Origin: Stegostoma tigrinum | Lineage: Eukaryota | DNA length: 64,000 nucleotides | Assembly (NCBI RefSeq): GCF_030684315.1 | Contig: NC_081392.1 | Location: 2,689,387-2,753,386, forward strand | Direction of reading: 5' to 3' | In this document: piece by piece, positions 4,998-64,000 of the stretch | Layout of the letters: every line of letters starts with the position of its first letter | How positions within the stretch are numbered: the stretch's first letter is position 1 | Notes under the pieces: model-generated | Databases searched by the model: none | What the model was told of the DNA's origin: nothing | Seen by the model: only the letters and a program-made list of their open reading frames with translations | Translations under genes and position numbers: made by a program

Positions 4998-6914
4998 ATG
5001 ACCTGAGGCAGCTTACTGAAAACTTGCAAGATATCAGAAATATTCTCAAAGCATGGTCAAAATTAATCACAATAGAAAGGTTTTCATCAAGTAACTAGGG
5101 AAAATCTGTTTCAATTGACAGGATAGTCAGTAACACAAAGTTATGATGATTGCCAAAAGAAGATGGTAAAAGTGAAGAGAATATTTTGAATTTTTAAGAT
5201 CTGCAGCCTCAAGTAGTGGTGGAAGCAAATTCATCACCAACTTGCAAAACGGGATTAGATAAATACTTGGGGGAAGGATGCCGGAGTGCTTTCAGGGTTG
5301 TTATAGGGCAGGACTATGTGAACACTTCCCCCAAAAGCCAGCACAGGCATGATGGGCTGAATGGCCTCCCTCTGTGTGTTATGATTCCATAGTTCCATGA
5401 TTAGGTTTGGTCTGGAAAATCATGACAGAAGTCTGGAGGGTAGTGTTTAAAGGCAACCACGCTCTTTTGAATAAATTAGACTTTTTTCCTGAAAACAAAG
5501 CTTTCAAAGCAGATGAGATATTTTAAAATTTGGGTAAGAAGTTCAGTAAATGCAGTTAGGTTGGTGTTTAGATGACAATCAATCATCGTATTTGTCAATT
5601 ATTGTCAATTATTACCAATACAGGTCATTAGTTGGGGCTTTGAAACTTAATCTGCAGAACTCCCCTGAGCCTTATTGAGCAATGTTGCATTGGAACTGCA
5701 CGTCCCTAAGCAGACTGTTGACAAATCAGCACTGTATTCTGTCTGTCATTAAGACTTGCATATTCCCACCGTGTATTGCCTTTCTCTGAGCCCTGCCTCT
5801 GCTGTTGAAAGGTATCCATGCCTTGACCTAACTTTATAAAGCCAGAGCTCATCCAAAGTTGGCAGTCACATAATTAACAGCCTAAGTTCCATTCTCATGT
5901 AGGTATCCTGTTCACTGACTTGTACTGGCTCTTGGTTTTTCGGTGCCTCCAATTCTACACTAAATCTTTTGTTTTAAAATTCCTTCCCCATCTTTGTAAA
6001 CTGTTCCACTTGATTGTTCTGTTCCCAAGTCTGGCCTCTCAGACCTTCTCCAATTTCCATTCCTCCATCATTGCTGGCCATGCCTTCAGCTGCCCAGGCC
6101 CCAGGCTCTGGGACCCTCTCCCTGAACCCTTCTACCCTCCATCTTTAAGGCGCACCTTAAAACCTACCAAGATATTGCCATATCTCCTCATAAATCCTTG
6201 TGTGTTAGACTTTGGCAGTTTGCACACTTGTTAAGTACTGTGGGACATGTCTGACATTCAAGGTGCTACATAAATGTGGCTTGTTCTAGTTCAAAAAAAT
6301 TGGTATCCACTTTAGGATTCATCCACCAATGAGAAAGCAATGCCAAAAACTGCACCCCCCCCCCACCACTCCCCCCTCAAATCTTTCAGGTTCATAAAAT
6401 GAACAGGATAAAGTAATGAGAAACAGGACTGAGTAAGGTGAATTTACAGAATGCAATTGTCAGAATTTGAGTGAAAAACACTGCCCTTTGAGTGGAGGGT
6501 TAACTGAGCAGGCACTGTTGTTTGCTAACTGTTTCTGAAGCACTGCTGACTGCAGCATCACGGCCCAGTTTCCTTCCTTGCTACGTCAGGATGGGGAGGC
6601 TGAATGCCAAGTGTCCTAGATTTGGAGGAAACTAAGAAAATTAAATTCAAAGCAAAAGTCCACTGTACAGAGAGAGAGTGCAGGTCTACTTATTGTCTTC
6701 AGTTCTGACCCCTTCTGCCATCTAAAGCTATAGCTTTATTTATGAATCTAGACTGTATGATCTTACCCAGCTACTAGATAGGGGGAGATGTGTAATGTCA
6801 CAGGAAAGTATATCCAGAGGGCCTATGCTAGTGGTCACAACATTAGTTCAAATCCCACCACAAATTTAATTTTAATTAGTTGGAATATAAATTGAATTGA
6901 AAGCTAGTATCACT

Positions 6915-14630: not shown

Positions 14631-16660
14631 CCTGTTCACAGGTTTAATCAGTTTTTCTCTAAATTTTGCTCTGTTTCCTTTGCAAGTTATGATTTACCTG
14701 TTTTTGTTTTAGTATGAGGTTCGATTGATCAGATAATCACCGGCCAGACCTCAAGGTGTTTCTTCAAGCAGGACTGTTAACAAAATATACATGCATGCAT
14801 GCACAAACACCTACAACCACCCCGAGACACACAACCACACCCACACCATCCCTGCCTTACGCGGTCCCATTTCGAACCCACTAGCAGGGGCTCTACCATA
14901 GGACCAGTGGGGTCACTGTTATATTATGGCATCCCTCAACAGCTCATTGGCATATAAATGACACCTACCTCTACAGTTTTCCATTTGGGCAGTGCATTCT
15001 AAGCTGGAACAGCTCTGTCCCATCATTCACCGTGATGACGTTTTCAGACTGATGAGTAGGCATTGGAGAGGGTGCAGAAAATATTCACAGGAATGAGTGG
15101 TTTTGAGGATGAAGATCTTCACTTCCATAGTTAGAATGAGTGGGACGACTACACTCTGTTGTAGGGGACACTGTCAGCTGGCTCCTGGTTTTGCAAGGAT
15201 CTTCTTGAGTACCTTTCGAGTTGGGGCCCTTCTTTAGAAAAAAAAGTTATGATTATGATAGGTGAATCATAACTTTTTTCTGAAGAAGGGTCCGGACCTG
15301 AAACGTCAGCTTTCCTGCTCCTCTGATGCTGCTTGGCCTGCTGTGTTCCTCCAGCTCCACACTGTGTTATCTCAGACTCCAGCATCGGCAGTTCTTACTA
15401 TCTCTTCTTTGGACACATTGCAGCCACTACTGTTATTTTATATTTACAGGCCTTACTAGAAATGGTAGTTAAGGACTCACAACTAATATTATCTTCAACA
15501 GAAGAGTCATATACATGAGTAACACTTGAGTTTGATACTTAATGGGAAGATAACAGGTTATCTTAAATTCAGTGGTTCATTACAATAGCACTGGGTAAGA
15601 GACATTGTTATTTCACTTAGTTGATGACAATGTCTTTGCTACATGTATGTTAACTGTTAAACTGACTAGCTTAGAGCTGATCTGGATCTGACCAGTTCCT
15701 CCATCTACATGTCAGTAGGTGGAGCTATTCCTAAAGCTTCTGAGTTAACCCTTTCAGGCCAAATGCCTTTTGCAATGATATCCTTAGAAAAGAGGAGATT
15801 GAGAAGAATTGACAGGTATTCAAAGTCATGAGGATCCTGGACAGAGTAGATAGGGAAAAGTGTTCCCATTGGTGAAAAGATCAAAGCAAGAAGACCAGAT
15901 TGGCAAAAGAATAAACCACCTTCATGAGGGGACATGAGAAAAATACATTTTATGCAGTTGCTGCTAGTATTTGGTTTGAGCTGCCTGAGAGCAAGGGGGA
16001 GACAGAATCAATTGTTGAGGACCTGAAGAGAAAAGATTTGTAGAGTAATGAAGATAAAACCGAGAGTAGGAGTGGGGAATGTTGTCACCATTTTGTGATG
16101 CTACTTTGTGAGCCATTCAGACTCTTCTGTCAGTTATGTTCAGACAGGAAAAAAGACTTTCAACTCCTGTAAATATTGTTTGTGTTCCTATTTGGCATTC
16201 TTATCTCAGTTCTTTTCAAAAGTAAACATCCTCTATTTGATCAGAAATTTGAGAGTTTGAGCCCCGTAGAATGGGTCATGCAGCATTAGGAATGTAATGA
16301 ATTGCCCCAGGCACTGCTGTCTGGATGAGATATTAAACCAAGGCCTGTACGCCCATTTATGGGAGGGTTAAGAATACCCCGGTCGTAGAAGAACAGGTTT
16401 GTTCTTTGTTAATCCAGTGCCACCAAAAATCAGCTGAACAAGTTGCCTTTTGTCGGAACTTGATGTTGCAAAAACTTTCCTATGTAATACTGTCACTGCA
16501 CTGCAAGTTCAAACAATTTATTGCCCATGGAGTGCTTGGCATGGTTATTAAGACACTGTGTAGAAAACCAGGTGTTTACAGTGATTAATGTATTCTGATA
16601 TTATATTAACTGTTGTTATGTTTCATTAAAGGTTAGTACATGATAACGACTCCTAACAAT

Positions 16661-46200: not shown

Positions 46201-49200
46201 CCTACAGTCCTAGCCTTTCCAAACAGCACAAATGGTTTCTACTCTTTCTGTTCTTCATAAGATCTTGAAAATTGCAATAAAATCAGTTGTGTCTTCTAAA
46301 TTTCCAGGAGGACCACCCTGTTTGTGTAATTGCATCTCAAATTAACTTTTGAAGTTCAGATATTACCAAAAGTGGAGATACCGTTGCAAGTGTGGTGCCC
46401 AGAATGCTCTCAATTCTCCAGGTGTGGTGTACCCAAGGCTTTGCATAATGGGAGCATTAATTTTATCCTCTTGTATTCTAATCTTCTTGTATTCTAATCC
46501 CCGACAATTCCATTAAGCTTTTTCATTATTTTCAGAAGCTCTTCATGACATTTTATAATTAGCCCACCTAGACTGAATCTCAATGTTCCTCTGTCAGTTC
46601 TAGGTTTTCTAGGATCCTGTTCTCTATCATTTTTAAGGTTCAAAGTGGGCAGAGGTAGCAGAGTTTTGGATGAACTGAAGTTTAGAAATACACTGGAAAA
46701 GTTGAGCCAGGATCACAGAGGGAAATATGGGATCAGTAGCTCAGCTAGGGATCAAATAAGATGCCACTAAAGAGTTGGATCTCTGAGAAGTAGACTCCAA
46801 GTGAAGCAGTGGTCAGAGGGGGATGGAATCAGTGATGATGATAGAGTTACTGATCTTCTTGATGCCGGATGAGAAAATTTCATTGGAAAATGCAAGCACA
46901 AGAAATGTCGCTTCTGTCAAACTAAAATTGCTAGAGATAAGGAATAATTTGCTTTTTGATTATAACAGTTCATTTATTTTGTACAGTAATTTACTTTATC
47001 ATCTGATCTTATCTGAGTGTTGCTGGGCAAACCAGGATTTCCAGTCAACAGTCTAGAAGAGAAAAAAGGCCATGGCTTCCCATGTAACATGCGGTCGTTA
47101 ATACATCAGTCAGGAGGCCCAAGGTTTGAGTTTGAGCTCTGATCTATCTTGAGTCATCTGATTTCAGCCAGAGTGGCAACAGCAAAGCTACATGTTCATA
47201 AAGACGTACAGGCAATATGAAGTTTCTCTTCACTTTCTACAAGGACATGTTCAGTTCCACAGGTAAAAATCAAACTCTAACATTTTGGTGAAGTTTGACC
47301 ATGGTCCAAGCTTGGTCCAACCTAATCTGACATCCACACACCTATTTTCAGAATACAATGCTTGAGCCAACAAGGTATGGAGCTGGACGAACACAGCAGG
47401 CCAAGCAGCATCTTAAGAGCAGGAAAGCTGACGCTTCGGGCCCATACCCTTCATCAGAAAAAGGGTTTTGGCCTGAAGCATCAGCTTTCCTGCTCCGAAG
47501 GTGCTGCTTGGCCTGCTGTGTTCATCCAGCTCCATATCTTGTTATCTCAGATTCTCCAGCATCTGCAGTTCCTATTATCTCTGATGCTTGAGTCAAGGTG
47601 GCCATGGCTAGGGTTCCCCTCATCCTACCAGGGGGGTGGATGTCAATGGTGTCACTATCCAGCTTCAATCTCCAGTCTGAATTGTTGAAGATTTACTCCG
47701 AGAGTAGTAAGGGAATGGAACGCTTTGCCTGCAACGGTTGTAGATTTGCCAACTTTAGGTACATTTAAGTCATCATTGGATGAGCATATGGACGTACATG
47801 GAATAGTGTAGGTTAGATGGGCTTCAGATCGGTATGGCAGGTCGACACAACATCAAGGGCCGAAGGGCCTGTACTGTGCTGTAATGTTGTATGTTCTATG
47901 TTCTATTAAAGTCAGACCTTCACTGATCTTAACCAACCAAAACTTCAATATGTCTTCAAGAGAGCCTATAGGACTTATTATACATAGCAATAACCTCCAG
48001 GCTTGCAGTGAGATCAATGGCAAACTGTAGGAATCCAGTACTGGAGAAAACAGACTCAAATACCAAACTATTGCAAGCCTATAAGGAATTCTATCAGACA
48101 TGGTCACAGCAAAAGAAAAGATAAATCTGCATTCCTATAAACTCTCAGAATAGACCATAACACTTCACAGCAAAATGAAGTGGGAATCTAGTCCTTGTTG
48201 TAATGTAGAAAAATGTGGCAGCTAATTCGCACAAAGCAAGCTTCCACTAATTGCAATGTGATAATTAGGGTCTGTTTGTAAACAATACCGCAATATATTT
48301 GGGAGTATTAACAGGAGAGAGGAAAATATAAACAAATCAAAGGAATTGGTCATGAGGGATGAGTCAACACTGAACCAGACAGAATGACAACTCTCTCAAT
48401 GGATACATACCGTGCAGCTCCCTCCATTTTTACAAGGATTGCTCTCACACTCATTGACTTCAGTCTCACAGTTGGTCCCACTGAAGCCCGGTTTGCACGT
48501 ACAGGTGTAGCTGCCTTGACCAGTGTTGGTGCATGTTGCTCCATTCTTGCATGGCTTGTGGTTGGTGCAGTAGTTGAGATCTTGGTTGCAGAAGAGGCCA
48601 CCCCAGCCTTCCTGGCAATTACACTGCCAAGGCTGCTGGCATGTGCCATGAAGACAACCTGGGTAACGAATACACTGATCGCAGAAACGGCCCTGCCAAC
48701 CAATACGACACCTAGAGGCAAAATAAACAAAATGACTTTAGAACGTCTAACAGAAAGTTTGGGAAAGTGGGAATACTATAAAAGAAAGATTTTTTTTTAG
48801 AAATGAAAATCACCCTCACTGGTGTAAAACAACGTGAAGTAATGATGGGCATTGTTAAAACCTGTACACCTACTGGAAGATATATACTGTCTTCCAAAAA
48901 AGTTAGGGTAACTTAATTCTTATGTTGATTTGTAAACTGGATTTATAATCCAGAGAATGAATTGTAAAAGACACTGGTTAGACCTCAGCTGGAGTATTAT
49001 GAACATTTCTGGGTACCACAATAAAAGAAGGATGTAAACACATTGGAGAGAGTGCAGATGTTTGTGAGAATGGTTCTAGACATGAGAAACTTCGGTTACG
49101 AAGAGAGATTGGAGAAGTTGGGATTGTTTTCCGCAGAGAGAACTCTAACAGGAGATTTGACAGAAATTTCAAAATCGTGAGGGGTCTGAACAGAATAAAT

Positions 49201-52200
49201 TGGGGAGAAGCAAATGTGAGATGAGAGAAAACATTTTCACACAGCAAATAGTTGTGGTCTGGAATGCACATGTATGGAATTGTCATGGAGGTAGAGTCAA
49301 TAAGGTAGAGTGAAAGAGAGTATTAGATATTTATTTAACAAGAAAAAGGGAAGAGAGTAGGAGAATGGCAATAAGTCATAATACTTATTCAGAGAGCCAT
49401 TGCAGACAAAATGTCTCTTCCGCTCTGTAAAAGTTCTGTGATTCTGTTTTGAGAATCTGATTTCCACTTTAAACATTTGGAAATGAAAAATCAGCAAAAA
49501 CGATCATGAAGTAGTCACGCAGCCAAGAAAACGAAACAAACAGTTCACCAATGTCTTTCAGGAAAGGAAATTAGCCATCCTTACCCCGATCTGGGCTCTG
49601 TGACTCCAGTCCCACACAATGCATGGTTGCCACTTTAAGTGCCCTCTGAATTTATCCAGAAAGCTACTCAGTTGTGTCAAGTTGAGGGCTACTTGGGGTA
49701 GGCTGTTAATGCTGGACTTGCCTGTGATGTCCACACCATGACTGATTTTTTTTTTAGTAAATAAAGAGAAAATTACCAATTGAATCTTAACTCACTTGCA
49801 TTCCCCTGGTCTTTCACAGTATCCGTAATTATCGTTGCACTGCAGCAAACAAATCGCTGTGAAACATTTTTTTGCAGCAGGAAAGGGAGAGAGAAAAAGA
49901 AAACTTTTTAAACACAGACACGTAAATGCATTACTTGTCAAGTTCTTTGGCATTTTAAGGGCAGCTGGCTCCACCCAGACAGTGATCCTGAACAATAACA
50001 CATGGTAGCTGTCTGGCTGCCTGTACGTGTAAAGACTTGGGACGCGTGTCCCTATTAAATCCACTCTCTCGCTCTCTGTGTGGACACTGAGTAACAGAGA
50101 ATAATAAAAGACCTTAAACAAGGAGACACCAAAGCAAAGTCAAAGCCCCCTGCACTAACAACTGCGACTGAGGAGTGAAGTTTCTATGGCAACATATCCT
50201 TCCACTCGCGTGTTTCCCTATGCAATGAGACCCTTTCAGAAGTGCTGAAATTTATTCAAATTTTATTCCTCAGCTGCCGGCTGTCAGATGGCTTTGTGTA
50301 GCCCAACAAGAGGAGGGTTGGGTCTGTGTTAACACACTTGAGCAAGTTAACCAGGCCTACCATATGCTTGCTTTCATATCGATTCACCCCCTCCTGCACC
50401 CATTCTATCGTCGCTGCTTCCCACATACTCAGTATTAACATTTCCCAAACCAGAACAGAAAATGCTGGAGAAACTCAGCAGGTCCTAGTAGCATCTCTGG
50501 AGAGAAGAAGAAACAGATTTAACGTTTCGAGTCAGGATGACTTCTTTGGAACACGAGGAAAAGTCATAGTGGACTGAAAACATAAACCTTGTTTCTGCCG
50601 TTACCGCTGAAATTCTCCAGTATTTTCTGTTTTTACTTCAGATCTCCAGCATTCGCTGTCCATTGTTGTTATTTTCCAAACCCAACTTGGAGCTAAATTT
50701 AATATCAAATATCCCCTCCGAAGAACACTAACAGGGATGACAGTTGCAAAGAATCTGATTTCAAATGGATGAAATGAAATGTATTAAGATATTTTAATAA
50801 GTATCCAAATGCCGTTTGCAACAGTTTGAATTTTTTTGAAAAATGAAACTTTTATTGTTTGATTATATATGAGTAGCCTTTATGCTGCCAACTCAAATCC
50901 AGATTTGGGGCAAATTAGAAATATCACCCAAGGGGGCGCTCCCCTGGGGTTGGGGTCGTGGGGGCTCCGGTCTTACGTTCCGAGCAGTAGTTGCCTTTCC
51001 AGCCGGCCAGGCAGACTCTGCGGCCGCTCTCGTCGCAGCTGTAGTGCCCGAAGGTGTCGTCCCGGGGCCGGCAGTAGTCAGAGCAGCCCTCTCCGTAGTA
51101 ATGCTCCTCGCAGACCACATGGTAAGAATAGCGCAGCTCACTGAGCTCGCCGGCCTGCACATCCTGAGACCAGTCCTCCCCGATGGCCAGGCGGCGGCCG
51201 GTGGCCAGGCGGCTGATCAGATTCCGGGGGTCATCTGGAGAAGGAGGGGAAAATAAAGAGAGTGAGGGAAATGTGGGTGGGATGTTGCTTAGCGAACGTT
51301 ACATTGCCCACCAGCAGCAGTCCACTGGGGTTAAATACATTGCTGGCTGCTATTTTTTCAGTACACTGCGCCCTCTAGTAAAAAGATTCAGAACTGCTAT
51401 TACCAATACTGGTCTCGTCGGATTCTGCATTCCAAACCTCGATAATGAGTGAGAAAGTGCCCTACAAACAGAAAGAGAAAAATGGACAACGTTGTCACTT
51501 TAGTACCGACAAGTCAGAACCAAATGTCTCTTGCACACACAAACATGTACTTCGCAGTGATTGCTAAAACTTTGCTGCATCCTCTACTCTCAACTTTACA
51601 AAGAAGTTGCGATTTGAAAACAATTTCTGAAACAAAAGCTTCTCAATCCCACATTTTTAAAAAATAGTTCCAAACATTTCTATTTTCCTGCCTAAAATAA
51701 TTTCGGTTTTATTACTTTATTTGCCACCGCTTGTTTTGTTTAATAATTTGCAAGTGCTCTGCTCCGCCCCTTTAAAAGAAACAGTAGGAGCTGCTGGTGA
51801 TACTTGCCGGCCATGTGAAGTGGAAGGGGATGCGGATGGGCTCGCTGTCCCGCACGGAGTCACTGCCTGGCCTCAGGACCGGGGTGGTGCCAGCGCCGTA
51901 CGTGCAGGGAGGCTCCGAGGAAATGTTCACCTGGTAATGCTTGAGGCACACCCGGAAGAAGCGGCCACACGGCGGCCCCCTCTGGCAGCCCTGGGCCAAC
52001 TCCGGTTGGCGGCTGCTGAACGAGTGAACTTTCAGTTCGAAAATACCTGTCGAGGAGATCTGGAAAAATAGAAGAAAAGAAAAATATCAAGTTAAAACGG
52101 AGAGCGGGAGAAGGCAGAAACGTCGGGAAGTCACACACAAAGTTGGAATCAATCAGGAGATTAGCTTACCTGGGCAAAGGGCAGCAGAGAAACGATGCAA

Positions 52201-52220
52201 AAGAGCAGGATTGGAACCAT
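31204..52220 (-). CDS. dlc: Delta-like protein C (deltaC / X-Delta-2 type Notch ligand), 10 coding exons, 2004 nt, 667 aa
   Basis: Manually spliced exons 52220-52170, 52059-51808, 51461-51404, 51234-50977, 49856-49796, 48711-48411, 32602-32386, 32270-31589, 31454-31337, 31209-31204 join in frame. Domain order is signal peptide, MNNL, DSL, 8 EGF, TM, ICD. The short MNNL and the tail (..[35 protein letters not shown]) resemble zebrafish DeltaC, as I recall it, more than DLL1/DLL4. Confidence 0.92.
31337..31454 (-). CDS. dlc: dlc exon 9 (..[24 protein letters not shown])
   Basis: 118 nt, ttttag|T ... GAG|gtaagt. Confidence 0.93.
31589..32270 (-). CDS. dlc: dlc exon 8 (EGF6-8, transmembrane helix, intracellular domain)
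   Basis: 682 nt. Branch point ctaac, acceptor aaaag|[29 protein letters not shown], donor AA|gtgagt. Confidence 0.93.
32386..32602 (-). CDS. dlc: dlc exon 7 ([19 protein letters not shown]...[13 protein letters not shown])
   Basis: 217 nt, ttgtag|GAC ... AATG|gtaag. Confidence 0.95.
33345..33885. repeat. Degenerate 30-bp minisatellite, ~18 units (attaacccttcctgtgcctgatccaggatc-like)
   Basis: Motif taacccttcctgt recurs at 30-nt spacing (e.g. 33446, 33476; 33630, 33720). Confidence 0.8.
35420..36210 (-). mobile_element. Decayed CR1 3' fragment
   Basis: Reverse-complement similarity to the CR1 RT C-terminus and tail. Confidence 0.6.
37120..41100 (-). mobile_element. Near full-length decayed CR1 LINE in dlc intron 6 (ORF1 esterase, APE endonuclease, RT)
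   Basis: [19 protein letters not shown] (40572-40766), [12 protein letters not shown] (39703-40143), YINDLD..SKFAD (37801-38031); many stops and frameshifts. Confidence 0.85.
38436..38641. mobile_element. PLE-derived palindromic mini-element inside CR1, dlc intron 6
   Basis: Near-perfect ~90-bp arms with a 3-nt loop; 14-bp TSD tcagatgtccaggc. Confidence 0.9.
47371..47583. mobile_element. PLE-derived palindromic mini-element, dlc intron 6
   Basis: Fold-back; TSD atgcttgag(c/t)caa. Confidence 0.85.
47690..47906 (+). mobile_element. Short CR1 3' end
   Basis: WNALPA motif, gggccgaagggcctgtactgtgctg, tgttctatgttctat tail. Confidence 0.8.
48411..48711 (-). CDS. dlc: dlc exon 6 (end of EGF1 to start of EGF4, [22 protein letters not shown]...[14 protein letters not shown]...NGGSCT)
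   Basis: 301 nt, ctctag|G ... ACG|gtatgt. Confidence 0.95.
48960..49445 (+). mobile_element. Decayed CR1 3' fragment (dlc intron 5)
   Basis: LVRPQLEY / LERVQ / [10 protein letters not shown]-like remnants. Confidence 0.7.
49796..49856 (-). CDS. dlc: dlc exon 5 (EGF1 start, [21 protein letters not shown])
   Basis: 61 nt, tcacag|CG ... AA|gtgag. Confidence 0.93.
50977..51234 (-). CDS. dlc: dlc exon 4 (DSL domain, ..[53 protein letters not shown])
   Basis: 258 nt, ctccag|AT ... GAAC|gtaag, canonical DSL cysteine spacing. Confidence 0.95.
51404..51461 (-). CDS. dlc: dlc exon 3 ([19 protein letters not shown])
   Basis: 58 nt, tttgtag|GGC ... G|gtaata, ends in phase 1. Confidence 0.92.
51808..52059 (-). 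CDS. dlc: dlc exon 2 (MNNL domain, [14 protein letters not shown]...[10 protein letters not shown]...PFHFTWP)
   Basis: 252 nt. Acceptor ttccag|ATC; non-canonical donor CCG|gcaagt at the conserved FTWP|GTF boundary. Confidence 0.92.
52170..52220 (-). CDS. dlc: dlc exon 1 coding part (signal peptide [17 protein letters not shown])
   Basis: ATG at 52220, 17 mostly hydrophobic codons, donor CAG|gtaagc. Confidence 0.88.
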
Positions 52221-52480
52221 CCTGACTGCAAATCCCGAGCGTCAAACGATAGTAGGCAGGAGACAGGGAAATAATATCCAAAGCGTCTGGGATTTAGAGA
52301 AAATAATACACACACTGATTTTATTAAAGAATACTCCAAAGCGTCTAGAAAATGAGACTCGTCTTCTCTTCCTAATATTTTTTGCGCTTTAAAAAACTTG
52401 AAATTCCCTCTTCTTTTCGTCCTGTTGCTGACTCCGGGAACTAACATAAGCTCCTCTCTCTCTATCTCTCTGCTGTGTAT

Positions 52481-52547
52481 GAATGAAGCTCAGTTCAGCC
52501 CTTTTCGCCTTTATATACTTCCGCAGTGTGTGAGTTTCCGTCAATCA
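52481..52547 (-). promoter_or_regulatory. dlc core promoter: TATATAAA (52517-52510), Inr-like TCATTC (~52486-52481), TGATTGAC Pbx-type motif (52547-52540)
   Basis: TATA lies ~30 nt upstream of an initiator-like element, ~265 nt before the ATG. Confidence 0.6.
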
Positions 52548-56739: not shown

Positions 56740-57135
56740 GTTTATTTATCAACTAACTAAAGATAATGACTTGGATGAGGGAAGTGAATGTACTATCGCA
56801 ATGACACATGTAAAAATTGGGAAGACAAGTGGTGAGGTTGACACATATAGTGAAGGGCTATAGACAGGTTAAAAGAATTAACAAAACTTAGTAGATGGAC
56901 TATAGTTTGGGAAAATGTGGAGTTATTCACTTTGGCAGGAAAATTAGAGGAGCTGAATATTATTTAAATGGAGAATGACTGTTGAAAGCTATAACACCGA
57001 AAACTTTGGAGGTCGTTGTGCATAAATCAAAAACAAAAAGCTAGCATCTGAGTTCAGCAGGTAATAGGGAAGGCGAGTATGCTGTTAGTCATTCTGTCAA
57101 AGGGAATAAAGTACAAAAATAGTGAAGTTTCGCTA
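56740..57135 (+). mobile_element. Decayed CR1 RT fragment
   Basis: aatgacttggatgaggga..., aaatgtggagttattcactttgg similar to the CR1 RT region. Confidence 0.65.
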
Positions 57136-57649
57136 AGATGTGTGTACAGAGTTAGTGTATCATGTGATTATAACTATGTGCATATTATATTCATCGTATC
57201 CAGCAGAGTGAGGCATGGTGGAGGGGAAAGGTGGGGTTCCACTGCCACAAACAACTATAATTCAGCAAGGTAGTTCAGCTCTGTTTTTCTGGAAACACCG
57301 CCTTCACAGCATTTCAACAACATGATGGATGTGGAGGACCCAGAAGGAGTGATTCTCTCCCAGGACACAGCCAAGGCAAATATGAGATACCCCTCTGTCA
57401 AGGCCATAGGCAGCAGAGAACACCACAGCTTCAGAGCACAAAAGGGCAATATCCTCTACTGATCTGACACAACATTTGGGAGTCCCTCCAATTTTCTGAT
57501 TTCTCAATTGTAAATTTAGTCAGGGCAATGGGAATAGATCAAATGCTAATTAATTTCAGGACAATGTGGTACTTCATATCAAGGAAAGAACAGTGATAGG
57601 AAGAGAGAATTTGAGGCTTTTAAACAACACTATGTGAAAAACTGAGCAA

Positions 57650-60600
57650 TTTCAAGGGTGAATTAGATAGATTTTTAATTTACAAGGAAGGTCAAATATT
57701 ATGGGAGGAGCAGACCAGAAATTGAAATCTGGTCTCAGTAATGACTATGGAATTATCATCAATTGTTATGAAAACCCATCCAATTCACTAATATCCTTTT
57801 GAGAGTCCAATGTGCTGTTCTTACCCAATCTGATCAACATGTGGCTCCAGGTCCATAGCAATGTATTTGACCTCTAACTGCCCTGTGAACTGGCCTTGCA
57901 AGCCACTCAAAGAATCATACAGAATGGAAACCCCTTGGTCCAACTCGACCAAGTTGACCAGACGTCTCAATCTGAACTAATCCCATTTGCCAGCATTTTG
58001 CCCCTATCCCTGTAAACCTTTTTTTATTTATATTCCTATCCAAATGCCTTTTAAATTTTATAATTGTACCAGCCTCCACCACTTCCTCTGGCAGATTGTT
58101 CCATACACACACCACCCACTTGCATGGAAAAGTTACTGTGAGGTCCTTTTCAAATATTTCCCCTCTCACTTTAAACCTCTAGTTATCATTTTAAGGACAG
58201 TTAAGGTTGGGCACATGGCTGTAACAATCAAGTCCCATGAAAGAATAAAAAATAGCCTAATTTTAGGACCTGTACGTTCTAGCTTCATTTTGCCAAATAG
58301 CTCTGCTGAAATATTCTGACCATTTCCCAATGTCTTTGTCTTATTTTGACATTGATTAATACAATTTCTAAGATATTAGATTTATTTTTTAACTGCAAAT
58401 GACTGTGGCGAGTGTGTAAAATATAAGCCTGCCACTGTAAATGCATCTGGATGATTGTAGAATTAATAGTTCCTATGTTGCCTAACATTTCCAAACACTG
58501 GCACATTGCTGTTAGATAGATATATTTCTTGCCTTTATGTGAGTTGTTTTTAATTTCCCTTGTACCAGAGGTAGACACAAGGTCTGACCCTAAAAATGTT
58601 GCCCTTACCCAGCTCTCAAGGGGTATTAACTAAATATTACATCCTTTTATTCCAGCCACAGGTCTGCTGTTCACACAGTGGGACATCCTTAAGTAATGTG
58701 TTGATGATTTTGTTAATAATTCTGACATGTTTTTCACTATAATCATACCTTACAGCTACACATGGGAGTTCTAATCTAATATCCAGGCACGTGTGTCTCT
58801 CTTTGTGAAATTATAACACAGCAGTTAGTGAGTAAAGATTGCAATTACATTAATACGTCAAGTAATTGAAAGGGTATGCGCATATGATTTTATATTCATG
58901 GAGCTGGAGGTAGACACACACACATAAATACAGATATATACATGCACAATCACACCCACATGCATATACTCACATACGCACCCTGACACTCATTTATACA
59001 CATATTCACACACTCTTACAGACACACATAAGAACAGACCGTACACACATATAAACATAAAACACATTTAAAGGTCGACACACACATTACACAGAGATAC
59101 AGACAAATATAAATGCAGATACACACCTATTAAGCCTAAGGTATACACACAGACATATATGTAAATCCACACATAAAGACACAGACTCATACATATAAAT
59201 ATATGCATAATAAGGCCAGGATGCCATTTGTATTCTAAGGAATTGCTTTCTCTGCGTGCTAATTTTCAGTGTTCCTTGGGTGTGCTCAGATAGAATCATA
59301 CAGTGGTTACCACACAGAGCAGGCCATTCAGTTTGTTTTAGCTGTGCCAACTTTCTACAAGAGTAATTCACCTAATCCTACTCTAGCCTTTTCCCTGTAT
59401 TCCTGCATTATTTTCTTTCGTTGGAGTTGATAAGACTGAAATGATATATTTTTTTAAACAAATCAGATCTTGAGGAGGAGACAACAAAACTGCAAATGCT
59501 AGAATCCAAGGTAGACAAACAGGAAGCCAGAAGAACACAGCAGGCCAGGCAGCATGTGGAGGAAAGGAGCAATCAATATTTCGGGAATTACGTTCTTGAA
59601 GCTCCTTTCCTCCAGATGGCTAGAGTAAGATTAGGTGAATTAAACTTGTTGGCACAGCTAAAACAAACTGAATGGTCTGCTCTGTGTGGTAACCACTGTA
59701 TGATTCTATCTGAGCACACCCAAGGAACACAGAAAATTAGCACGCAGAGAAAGCAATTCCTTAGAATACAAATGGCATCCTGGCCTTATTATGCATACAT
59801 TTATATCTTTATGTGTGGATTTATATATATATGTGTCTGTGTGTACACCTTAGGCTTAATAGATATGTATCTGCATTTATATGTGTCTGTATTTCTGTGT
59901 AATGTGTGTAACGACCTTTAAATGTGTTTTGTGCTTATATGTGTGTGCAGTCTGTTCTTATGCGTGTCTGTTAGAGTGTGTGAATATGTGTATATATGGG
60001 TGACAGCGTGTGATTGTGCATGGGAGTGTGATTGTGTGTGTGTGTACATCTGGGTGTGTGTATGTGAGTGTTTGCATGTGGGTGTGATTGTGGATGTATA
60101 TATCCGTATTTATGTGTGTGTGTCTACCCCCAGGTCCATGAATATCAAATCACATGTGCACACCCTTTCAATTACTTGACGTATAAATGTAATTGCAATC
60201 TTTATTCACTAACCGCTGCGTTATAATTTCACAAAGAGAGACACACATGCCTGGATATTAGATTAGAATTCCCATGTGTAACCACAAGGTACGTTTATAG
60301 TGAAAATCATGTCAGGATTATCAACAAAATCATCAACACATTAGTTAAAGTTGTCCCATTGTGAGAACAACAGACCTGTGGCTGGAATAAATGGATGTCA
60401 TGTTTAGTTAATACCCGTTGGAAGCTGGACAAGAGCAACATTTCAGGCTCAGACCCTGTGCCTATCTCTGGTACAAGGGAAATTGAAAAAAAACACACAC
60501 AAAGGCAAGAAAATGTATCTGTCTGAGAGGATTGAGACCAAAGTGCCAGAGTTTGGAAATGTTAGGCAACATAGAAACTATTAATTCTACAATCATTCAG

Positions 60601-61400
60601 ATGCCGTTTGCAGTGACAGGGTTATATTTTACACATTCACTGCAGTCATTTCCAGTTAAAAAATAAATCTATTGTCTTAGAAATTGTATTAAGCAATGTC
60701 AAAATAAGACAAATACATTGGGAAATGGCCAGTATATTTCAGCAGAGCTATTTGGCAAAATGTCCCTAGAATGTACCGACCTTAAAATTAAGCTGTTTAT
60801 TTTTATTCTTCCACAGGACATGATTGTCATAGCCATGTGCCCAACCCTAACTCTCCTTAAATTGAAAACTAGGGGGCATAGGTTTAAAGTGAGAAGGGAA
60901 ATATTTTAAAAAAGACCTCACTGTAACTTTTCCACGCAAGCGGGTGGTATGTGTATGGAACGAGCTGCCAGACGAAGTGATGGAGGCTGGTACAATTACA
61001 ACATTTAAAAGGCATTTGGATAGGAATATGAAGAGGCGGGCTTACAGAGATAGGGACAAAATGCTGGCAAATGGGACTAGGTCAGATTGAGATGCCTGCT
61101 CGGTATGGATGAGTTGGACCAAAGAGTCTATTTCCATGCTGTAAGACTCTTTGAGTGGCTTGCAAGGCCAGTTCAGTGGGCACTTAAGGGTCAGATACAC
61201 TGCTGTGGACCTGGAGCCACATGTTGATCAGTCTGGGTAAGAACAGCACTTTGGAATTCCTAAAGGACATTACTGAATCGGATAGGTTTTCACAACAATT
61301 GATGATAGTTCTATATACACTGAGATTAGATTTCAATTTCTGGTCTGCTCCTCCCACCTTCCTTGTACATTAAAAATCTATCTAACTCAACCTTGAACTT
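57650..61400. repeat. Large inverted duplication, arms ~57650-59388 and 59618-~61400, spacer 229 bp
   Basis: Colinear reverse-complement match across SINE, CR1, unique and (CA)-rich segments; the ORF track shows the same peptide on opposite strands (59087- and 59496+). Confidence 0.95.
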
Positions 61401-61478
61401 ATACCCGAAACGTTGACTGCTTTTTTCCTCCAGATGCTGCCCACCTGCTGTTTTCTTCCAGCCTCCTGTTTGTCTACC
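59475..61478. mobile_element. PLE-type fold-back element (subfamily 3) split by a captured inverted copy of flanking DNA
   Basis: Left arm 59479-59617, return arm 61401-61479; degenerate TSD tcagatcttgag/tcacattttgag. Confidence 0.75.
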
Positions 61479-62268
61479 TCACATTTTGAGAGGTTTGACA
61501 GACTGGACACGGCAAGGATGTTTCTTCTTGTGGAGGAACTGGAGCTAAGGAGCTCCATTTCAAAATAAGGGTTCTGCAGTTTATGGTAGAAATGAGATGG
61601 TAGAGATGCTTGCAGAGCATTATTAGTATGTGAAATTCACTTCACTGGACAGCAATGTAGGCTTGGCTATTGTATATGTTTGAATCTGAGTTAGATTTAG
61701 TTATCAATAAGAGAGTCAAAGGTTTTGAGAAACAGAGTGGAATTGAGACCAGAACCAGATCATAAATGATGGAACAGACTCGATGGGTCTTATAAGATGA
61801 TCTTATTTCTTAAGTTCTAAAGCAGTCATTATTTTTATGCTTTTAATTCCCTTGTGTTAAGAGTGCAGTATAGTAAGTGGTGTATTGAAGTTCATATGAC
61901 TTTGCTTCTGTATTCTAGCGGGGAATTGCAGAGTGTGCCTGCTTCATTTGATGAACTGCTGGTTGTTGTCTGGGTAGACAGCATGGCTGAAGTTGATACA
62001 AGGACAGCTTTCCTTTGAAAATGTTTCTAGGCTTTCACCTTAATTCTGGTGCTCACCAGGGAGTGATTGTAATCCTCCTGTTATCTGCATCATATCAGTG
62101 CTGTGATAGCTGTGTGTATTGATAGAGCTGTTCTGAAAGTCTTGGGTGATGAGTCAATACAGCTGGTGCCAATGCCCTGATCTTGAATGTCCCCAGGGCA
62201 CCTTGTGGCTATGGTTTGTTCTGAAGTTACATTTGCTTATAGTAACAGCAAGTCTTAAGTAGTTTCTG

Positions 62269-63309
62269 AGATAATGGGAACTGCAGATGCTGGAGAATTC
62301 CAAGATAATGAAATGTGAGGCTGGATGAACACAGCAGGCCAAGAAGCATCTCAGGAGCACAAAAGCTGACGTTTCGGGCCTTGACCCTTCATCAGAGAGA
62401 GGGATGGGGAGAGCGAACTGGAATAAATAGGGAGAGAGGGGGAGGCGGACCGAAGATGGAGAGAAAAGAAGATAGGTGGAGAGAGTGTAGGTGGGGAGGT
62501 AGGGAGGGGATAGGTCAGTCCAGGGAAGACGGACAGGTCAAGGAGGTGGGATGAGGTTAGTAGGTAGATGGGGGTGCGGCTTGGGGTGGGAGGAAGGGAT
62601 GGGTGAGAGGAAGAACCGGTTAGGGAGGCAGAGACAGGTTGGACTGGTTTTGGGATGCAGTGGGTGGGGGGGAAGAGCTGGGCTGGTTGCGTGGTGCAGT
62701 GGGGGGAGGGGACGAACTGGGAACTCTAGATGACATGTCCATCATGGGCCTCCTGCACTGCCACAATGATGCCACCCGAAGGTTGCAGGAACAGCAACTC
62801 ATATTCCGCCTGGGAACCCTGCAGCCATATGGTATCAATGTGGACTTCACCAGTTTCAAAATCTCCCCTTCCCCTACTGCATCCCTAAACCAGCCCAGTT
62901 CGTCCCCTCCCCCCACTGCACCACGCAACCAGCCCAGCTCTTCCCCCCCACCCACTGCATCCCAAAACCAGTCCAACCTGTCTCTGCCTCCCTAACCGGT
63001 TCTTCCTCTCACCCATCCCTTCCTCCCACCCCAAGCCGCACCCCCATCTACCTACTAACCTCATCCCACCTCCTTGACCTGTCCGTCTTCCCTGGACTGA
63101 CCTATCCCCTCCCTACCTCCCCACCTATACTCTCTCCACCTATCTTCTTTACTCTCCATCTTCAGTCCGCCTCCCCCTCTCTCCCTATTTATTCCAGTTC
63201 CCTCTCCCCATCCCCCTCTCTGATGAAGGGTCCAGGCCCGAAACGTCAGCTTTTGTGCTCCTGAGATGCTGCTTGGCCTGCTGTGTTCATCCAGCCTCAC
63301 ATTTCATTA
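62269..63309 (+). mobile_element. Young Penelope-like fold-back element with 420-bp inverted arms
   Basis: Arms 62302-62721 and 62894-63313; centre encodes the PLE C-terminus (..RRLQEQQLIFRLGTLQPYGINVDF); 16-bp TSD tcttaagtagtttctg. Confidence 0.92.
63220..63247 (+). ncRNA. Minimal type I hammerhead ribozyme motif in a PLE pLTR (mirror copy on - strand at 62368-62395)
   Basis: CTGATGA-a-GGG tccagg CCC-GAAA-C-GTC; stem III reduced to the ACGT palindrome. Confidence 0.7.
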
Positions 63310-64000
63310 TCTTAAGTAGTTTCTGTCCATTTTAGATTATCTTTCCTGTGCCCGGATGCCCAAGGAAGGAGAATCATGCCTCACGATCCATAATTACACT
63401 TGCAACAAATTTCCCTTGGGGTCCAAATTTTCTGATTCAGGGATTTGTTCCTTTATATATTTGCCATTAATTGGTAACCCACATACATCTAATAATCCAG
63501 AAATCCACACAGTGATGACATGGGTTCAAATCCACCTCAATAGCTAATAGAATTGGAAGTTTGGTCTCCCCAAGTAAGTCTATGAAATTATCACAGTTTA
63601 TTTCTAAAAAGCCATCTGGTCCACTAATGTTTTAATGGGAAAGAAATCTACCATCCTTACCTGGTCTGACCTACCTGTGACTCCAGACTCACTGCAATAT
63701 GATTGACTCCTAACTGTTCTCTGAATTGGTTCAGCATGTGACTCAAAGCAAGGACCATTAGGAATGAGCAATAAATGCTGGGTTTGCCAGTGACAACCAC
63801 GTCCCACAAAAGAATAAAGGAAAGTAACTCATATTATCCCAATAAGGTAATAGTTATTTGAGTGTTTCTTACTTCTGAACCAATTAGATTCTTTCCATGA
63901 CTCCCTTAGGTCACCTTGTTTATTTATCACTGCAATTTTTTAATCAATAAAGCTACCTCACCTCCTTTCTTTCCTTATTTTATCTCCTGAATATCTTAAA

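What the first reader, a model, noticed from the sequence alone, without database searches (positions are those of the whole stretch)
57650..61490. A Penelope-type hairpin insertion appears to have copied 1.75 kb of its own flank in inverted orientation
Seen, in order: (1) a 12-bp degenerate TSD copy (tcagatcttgag, 59463-59474); (2) the outgoing arm of a PLE-terminus hairpin (59479-59600); (3) only ~18 nt of the fold-back arm (gctcctttcctccagatg, rc of 59553-59570 with one mismatch); (4) an abrupt switch at 59618 into a reverse-complement copy of upstream genomic DNA, 59388 back to ~57650; (5) a switch back, near a CTTGAA microhomology shared with the hairpin centre, into the return arm (61401-61479); (6) the second TSD copy (tcacattttgag, 61479-61490). 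The interrupted CR1 continues after it. Inference: during integration or second-strand synthesis the polymerase template-switched onto neighbouring chromosomal DNA, so these elements can generate kb-scale local inverted duplications. Here that made a ~3.75 kb quasi-palindrome 5-9 kb upstream of dlc. I know of no description of PLE-driven flank duplication of this form.
Basis: partly seen in the sequence, partly recalled or inferred. Interest (0 to 1): 0.8.

Follow-up and report, generated by a model that had tools for sequence, protein, structure and literature searches.

The report
Penelope insertion with mirrored flank copy
An old jumping-gene insertion carries, between its two halves, a backwards copy of 1.74 kb of the DNA next to it; this repair scar is known from human L1 elements, and here it is a real but rare fossil in a different element class.

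Summary
The structure is real. 59618-61400 is an inverted copy of 57648-59388 (10.8% mismatches). It lies between the tailed and tailless arms of a Penelope-like (PLE) insertion whose degenerate target duplication splits a CR1-like fragment. Same-species contigs bridge every junction without a mismatch. A related species about 5% diverged has both insertion ends and both copies, so no empty site is available. Best reading (about 0.6): the element primed cDNA from both target strands; before the ends were joined, the left 3' end folded back on its own strand, copied 18 nt of element and 1.74 kb of flank, and was joined to the right cDNA. A later break at the hairpin centre (about 0.27) gives the same anatomy. 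New here: the inner 240 bp are only 3.4% apart against 12% outside, which points to later arm-to-arm conversion. Generality is not shown: 0 of 152 other arm pairs in 0.9 Mb had a TSD-bounded flank copy; there was one partial case and eight local inverted copies away from PLE inner ends. L1 elements make the same scar; I found no PLE report. New variant of a known kind.

The parts
57648..59388 (+). Source copy of the duplicated flank (A); contains a dispersed repeat fragment at about 57905-58180
59130..59388 (+). Inner part of arm A, 8 mismatches in 238 columns against the copy (outer part 176 in 1,466); likely homogenised later
59389..59462 (+). Flank not copied; its right part belongs to the interrupted CR1-like fragment
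59463..59474 (+). Left TSD copy (may extend to 59478 with a 1-nt indel)
59478..59600 (-). Tailed PLE terminal arm: 31-nt tail (59478-59508) plus pLTR end up to the hammerhead-like core; element sense is the minus strand
59601..59618 (+). 18-nt fold-back piece of element, reverse complement of 59553-59570, identical to the subfamily consensus
59618..61400 (-). Inverted copy of 57648-59388 (A')
61399..61479 (+). Tailless PLE terminal arm, element sense on the plus strand
61479..61490 (+). Right TSD copy (may extend to 61493)
61491..61580 (+). Continuation of the interrupted repeat (CR1-like 3' ORF region; the name CR1 is recalled, not from a library search)

Best explanation
One integration event. 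Step 1 (shown in vitro for a related element; supported here by copy anatomy): the PLE protein cut both target strands 12-15 nt apart and made a cDNA from each 3' end, one with the tail and one without. Step 2 (inferred): the two cDNA-extended ends were not joined at once, and the bottom strand of the left end was resected, leaving the top strand single-stranded. Step 3 (inferred from the order of templates, 59570 to 59553, then 59388 to 57648, all on one strand and in one direction): the left 3' end folded back on itself and was extended, either in two hops or in one run followed by a later 165-nt loss at the centre. Step 4 (inferred): the extended end was joined to the right cDNA with 0-2 nt of overlap, as ordinary arm joints are. 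The copying was probably done by host repair polymerases rather than by the RT. Step 5 (divergence drop shown, cause inferred): the inner ~240 bp of the arms were later homogenised by arm-to-arm conversion. The result is fixed, old and most likely neutral.
For: Both ends of the copy abut element sequence inside one TSD pair. Ages agree: outer duplicate arms 12.0% (CI 10.4-13.8), element arm against arm 13/79 = 16.5% (CI 9-26), Fisher p 0.22; arms against consensus 8.7% at non-CpG sites (CI 5.2-13.6) versus 6.5% per lineage for the duplicate. A relative has both insertion ends and both copies. In young copies the arms mostly join directly, with 0-5 nt overlap, and the tailless arm is the longer in 4 of 13. 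PAc nicks and extends both strands, and its two start sites differ by the tail (PMC11167929). L1 insertions with an inverted duplication primed by a self-annealed 3' end are described (bioRxiv 2024.12.14.628481 section 9; PMC10191854).
Against: No empty or element-only orthologue exists to time the steps. The point estimate makes the duplicate younger than the element (6.5% against 9.3% after correction). No second clean case among 152 other arm pairs. Eight local inverted copies lie away from PLE inner ends, so the host makes such scars without PLEs. In the L1 examples the duplication is on the end without cDNA and measured 52-220 bp in normal cells; here it starts in the cDNA and is 1.74 kb.
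Confidence: 0.6

Rival explanations
1. Two steps: an ordinary two-armed hairpin inserted first. Later its centre broke (cruciform cleavage or fork stalling), and host repair folded the left end back and copied the flank before rejoining. The PLE supplied only the fragile site.
For: It gives the same anatomy. The duplicate's point estimate is younger than the element's. At L192 a 102-bp inverted copy (34 nt of element, 68 nt of flank) at a PLE centre is 99% identical, while the element arms differ at 3 of 47 sites and there is no TSD. At L031 four flank segments 99-100% identical to their sources sit inside an old PLE.
Against: The confidence intervals of the ages overlap (p 0.22). The event predates the split from the relative, so it must have come early. 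Hairpin centres that later acquired such a copy are as rare in the screen as insertion-time ones.
Confidence: 0.27
2. One reading: a single polymerase made the outgoing arm, switched to the flank, and switched back to the outgoing arm near a CTTGAA microhomology to make the return arm.
For: The return arm (61399-61479) lies wholly within the span of the outgoing arm, so it could have been copied from it. Self-priming was proposed for PLE inverted structures (PMC3846280 passages).
Against: The consensus lacks CTTGAA at that place. Tailless arms longer than the tailed arm (4 of 13) cannot be copies of it. It needs three switches instead of two plus an ordinary joint.
Confidence: 0.1
3. Coincidence, RNA-borne capture of the flank, or an assembly error.
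For: Local inverted copies are fairly common here, 8 in about 0.8 Mb of non-satellite DNA. PLE termini can frame host DNA (PMC3846280).
Against: 12% divergence between the copies, and junction-bridging contigs with no mismatch in a run of the same species, exclude an assembly error. The source lies 74 nt from the TSD and is inverted, which an RNA made before insertion would not explain. Both junctions fall exactly on element inner ends.
Confidence: 0.03

Closest known systems
L1 insertions with inverted duplication (fold-back inversion) of flanking DNA (PMC10191854; bioRxiv 10.1101/2024.12.14.628481, Fig. 4)
   Same: Retroelement insertion with a TSD, an inverted copy of the adjacent genomic DNA next to the insert, minimal microhomology at the fold-back, and a model of self-annealing of a resected 3' end.
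   Different: Here the element is a PLE with cDNA on both ends, the fold-back starts inside the cDNA, the copy is 1.74 kb (52-220 bp in the normal-cell L1 cases), and it is fixed in the germline of two species.
Canonical EN+ PLE insertion: inverted 5'-truncated pLTR, 30-40 bp tail on one end, TSD (PMC3846280, PMC8557442, PMC11167929)
   Same: [quoted passage not shown]
   Different: The arms are normally adjacent (108 of 153 pairs have at most 10 nt of filler); here 1.8 kb of flank copy separates them.
Host DNA framed by Penelope pLTRs and a TSD in Adineta vaga (PMC3846280)
   Same: Non-element DNA between pLTRs inside a TSD.
   Different: There a gene was moved in trans between direct pLTRs; here the source is the immediate flank, inverted.
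Snap-back templated insertions in end joining (SD-MMEJ, polymerase theta) and Ac/Ds composite insertions in maize (PMC4270019); seen as search listings only
   Same: Locally templated copies made at a break or during transposition.
   Different: Polymerase theta inserts are usually much shorter (recalled); composite insertions need two DNA-transposon ends and re-replication.

Membership tests
EN+ Penelope-like element insertion | Family encodes RT followed by a C-terminal GIY-YIG endonuclease | tested here: met
   A longer copy of the same subfamily (L024) translates, with stops, to an RT region with YIDD, 32/45 identical to the young family ORF (E 1e-20). That ORF hits Pfam GIY-YIG at E 0.0012, below the gathering cut-off. 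The L024 fragment alone had no Pfam hit.
EN+ Penelope-like element insertion | Inverted 5'-truncated terminal copy and a 30-40 bp tail on one end | tested here: met
   Tailed arm 59478-59600 and tailless arm 61399-61479; tail 31 nt.
EN+ Penelope-like element insertion | Target-site duplication | tested here: met
   10/12, possibly 15 nt with an indel; the interrupted repeat is continuous in 3 of 3 other copies. Young copies mostly have 13-15 nt TSDs.
EN+ Penelope-like element insertion | Hammerhead ribozyme motif in the pLTR | tested here: inconclusive
   A recalled core pattern matches the subfamily consensus once; Rfam gave no hammerhead hit in 57000-64000.
EN+ Penelope-like element insertion | Clade (Penelope/Poseidon, Neptune, Nematis) by RT phylogeny | not tested
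   No tree was built.
TPRT-linked inverted duplication (L1 type) | Inverted copy of adjacent flank next to a TSD-bearing retroelement insert | tested here: met
TPRT-linked inverted duplication (L1 type) | Small hairpin with 1-2 nt microhomology at the fold-back | tested here: met
   30-nt loop at the first fold-back; 1 nt shared at 59618.
TPRT-linked inverted duplication (L1 type) | Duplication arises on the reciprocal end that carries no cDNA | tested here: not met
   The fold-back starts in element sequence, and both ends carry element arms.
TPRT-linked inverted duplication (L1 type) | Duplication and insertion arose in one event | tested here: inconclusive
   Ages overlap; the relative has both; no empty or element-only site is available.
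Host DNA mobilised in trans between pLTRs | Captured DNA comes from another locus | tested here: not met
   The only full-length source in the genome is the adjacent flank.

The most novel reading that the evidence does not exclude
PLE integration passes through a free double-strand break with cDNA on both ends. At a low rate (up to about 2% of insertions) host repair turns this into germline-fixed, kb-scale inverted duplications. At roughly one two-armed insertion per 15 kb (25 in 364 kb of non-satellite blocks), this genome could hold hundreds of them, each then homogenised from the centre outwards. They would be a datable record of the unsolved joining step of PLE integration and a source of local duplication near genes.
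Probability: 0.3. Interest if true: 0.62.

Novelty: new variant of a known kind. Interest (0 to 1): 0.36.

Why it matters
How PLEs join their two arms is an open step: the in vitro paper leaves second-strand synthesis and repair unvalidated. An insertion in which the joint went wrong shows that an end was free and could be extended on its own strand for 1.7 kb, which argues for a repair-type joint. It extends a scar known from somatic L1 activity to another retroelement class and to the germline. As one old case with no shown enrichment or function, it is an illustration rather than a new system.

Tried and rejected
Empty-site orthologue: none found; the only related species among the runs shares the insertion. 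No listed contig of that species covers 59523-60544, so the two inner junctions are unresolved there. L026 looked like a second case but is a nested insertion into an older PLE hairpin. L103 is a tandem of element sequence, not host DNA. L117, L118, L062, L054 and three block hits have inverted copies that do not touch PLE inner ends. L003/L031 is a recent multi-segment templated insertion inside an old element. Short flank matches next to arm inner ends (27 of 114 tested) were mostly 12-19 nt and included TSDs; the control at outer ends gave 32 of 311; I drew nothing from them. One 100-kb block (C5) was satellite with no PLE and added nothing. Rfam found no family above threshold. Constraint as the cause of the similar inner arms: the relative differs by 4.6% there, against 5.1% averaged over eight stretches, so it is not favoured. 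The 158-aa stop-free frame at 59445-59921 crosses the junctions and was not treated as a gene. The screen stopped at 0.9 Mb, so the frequency bound is loose.

Full report
Observation. A self-comparison of the window shows one long inverted match, 57648-59388 against 61400-59618 (1,820 columns, 83.5% with gaps), with 184 mismatches in 1,704 aligned columns. In the genome, the tested part (57650-58900) matches full length only at these two places; 39 of 41 matches concern a dispersed repeat inside it. The order on the plus strand is: source A, 74 nt of uncopied flank, left TSD (59463-59474), tailed arm (59478-59600), an 18-nt piece of element in the opposite orientation (59601-59618), the inverted copy A', tailless arm (61399-61479) and right TSD (61479-61490). 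The TSD copies match at 10 of 12 positions (P=6e-5 at a fixed register) and may be 15 nt with one indel. My automatic caller missed this TSD. Independent support comes from the interrupted repeat: with the insert removed in silico, the flanks align across the joint in all 3 other copies that the search returned.

The element. A search with the tailed arm returned subfamily copies at 86-91% identity. Against a consensus of 29 of them, the arms differ by 8.3% and 8.9% and the 18-nt piece not at all. A longer copy carries a decayed RT region that is 32/45 identical to the ORF of a young subfamily, whose C-terminal part hits Pfam GIY-YIG weakly (E 0.0012, below cut-off). Head-to-head arms, a 31-nt tail and a TSD match the published PLE layout (PMC8557442 and PMC3846280, passages). 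In 13 young two-armed copies most arms join with 0-5 nt of overlap, and in 4 the tailless arm reaches further into the element than the tailed arm. Those arms cannot be copies of the first cDNA. This fits the finding that PAc nicks and extends both strands from two start sites separated by the tail (PMC11167929, parts 1 and 2 of 4 read).

Junctions. The first fold-back leaves a 30-nt loop. The hop from the 18-nt piece to 59388 shares 1 nt. The joint to the return arm shares 0-2 nt. All templates before the last joint lie on the top strand and are read in one direction, as expected of a 3' end folding back on its own strand. Whether the 165 nt between 59552 and 59389 were skipped or lost later cannot be told.

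Reality and age. Four runs labelled as one species hold 95-97% of the sampled words; one may be the source sample. In the one I laid, contigs bridge the left TSD, both inner junctions, the third junction and the right end with no differing letter. These are short-read contigs, not long reads. Three runs of a second species from three studies were laid too. They differ from the window by about 5%. Two of them show the left insertion junction and the right end. One of them (X4) holds both partners of one duplicated stretch: 58324-58502 with 3 differences and 60545-60724 with 6, while the window's two copies differ at 16 of 179. Insertion and duplication therefore both predate the split, and no empty site is at hand. 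The outer duplicate arms differ by 12.0% and the element arms by 16.5% (13/79; p 0.22); per lineage the values are 6.5% against 9.3% from consensus, with overlapping intervals. This fits one event, or a second event soon after.

The inner 238 columns have 8 mismatches against 176 in the outer 1,466 (permutation p 0.003 for the best split). In the second species, contig depth is raised over 59166-59347 and low over 59712-59893, as if its two inner arms collapsed into one, and its divergence from the window there is ordinary (4.6%). Arm-to-arm conversion near the spacer is the simplest reading. The depth evidence is weak, and conversion in large palindromes I saw only as search listings.

Is it general? 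I screened 145 regions, 904,466 bases, of which 100 kb was satellite without PLEs. They hold 420 terminal arms and 153 head-to-head pairs within 2.5 kb. Non-element filler was at most 10 nt in 108 pairs, 11-40 in 16, 41-200 in 4 and over 200 in 25; most of the last group appear to be unrelated neighbours. Apart from the finding, 0 of 152 had a TSD-bounded inverted flank copy (95% upper bound about 2%). Most loci reach only 1.5 kb to each side, and the sample is biased to the best matches of five queries. One partial case, L192, has a 102-bp inverted copy that runs from the element into 68 nt of flank at an element centre; it is 99% identical and has no TSD, so it may be a later event. Eight local inverted copies do not touch PLE inner ends (L003/L031, L054, L062, L117, L118 and three in the blocks). 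With one unselected hit among nine events, enrichment is not shown. An earlier unchecked note from another genome (e1-7789279) reports 236 bp of upstream DNA between two PLE arms; it is a lead only.

What is known. For L1, short fold-back inversions (inverted duplications) of 52-220 bp upstream of the target site were seen in 3 + 1 somatic insertions (0.3% + 0.1%; PMC10191854, one passage). A preprint explains L1 insertions with inverted duplications by self-annealing of a resected 3' end (10.1101/2024.12.14.628481, passages and section 9). Host DNA between pLTRs inside a TSD is known from Adineta (PMC3846280, abstract and passages). Five searches of the open-access library listed no paper on a PLE-linked inverted flank duplication; I judged most listings by title and abstract start, subscription journals are not covered, and I read no supplements.

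Verdict. The structure is real, old and shared by two species. It works like the L1 fold-back scar, on the two-ended chassis of a PLE insertion. Origin at insertion is the likeliest reading (0.6), later repair at the hairpin centre is the main rival (0.27), and generality is unproven. No function near the Delta-like gene was tested or is suggested by the divergence. New variant of a known kind; interest 0.36.

Noticed in passing
L031 (G000:C24:35329500-35339400), 5167-6034: Four segments copied from the preceding 1.6 kb (315 bp direct; 248, 74 and 238 bp inverted; 99-100% identical) sit inside an old PLE copy: a recent multi-switch templated insertion.
   Followed up: partly
L192 (G000:C44:5968047-5971173), 837-1311: 102-bp inverted copy (34 nt element plus 68 nt flank, 99%) at a PLE centre, with no TSD; the nearest thing to a second case.
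   Followed up: partly
L103 (G000:C11:50796244-50799375), about 1244-1973: Young PLE insertion with a 15-nt TSD: three tandem tailed units, the first two each followed by about 114 nt of other element sequence (253-nt monomer), then one tailless arm.
   Followed up: no
window 62266-63313: Young 1-kb two-armed PLE palindrome (420-nt arms, 98% complementary) with a TSD, 0.8 kb from the finding.
   Followed up: partly
window 15211-15306: PLE arm followed by a small hairpin that includes about 20 nt of non-element sequence in inverted repeat.
   Followed up: no
G000:C20:30081929-30086121: 445-bp inverted copy (92%) of unique DNA 3.3 kb away, with no PLE at its junctions.
   Followed up: partly
G000:C5:60000001-60100000: 100 kb of satellite-like DNA (97% of 16-mers repeated) with no PLE match.
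   Followed up: no
window about 48400-52500, minus strand: Exons of a Delta-like Notch ligand gene, 5-9 kb from the duplication.
   Followed up: partly
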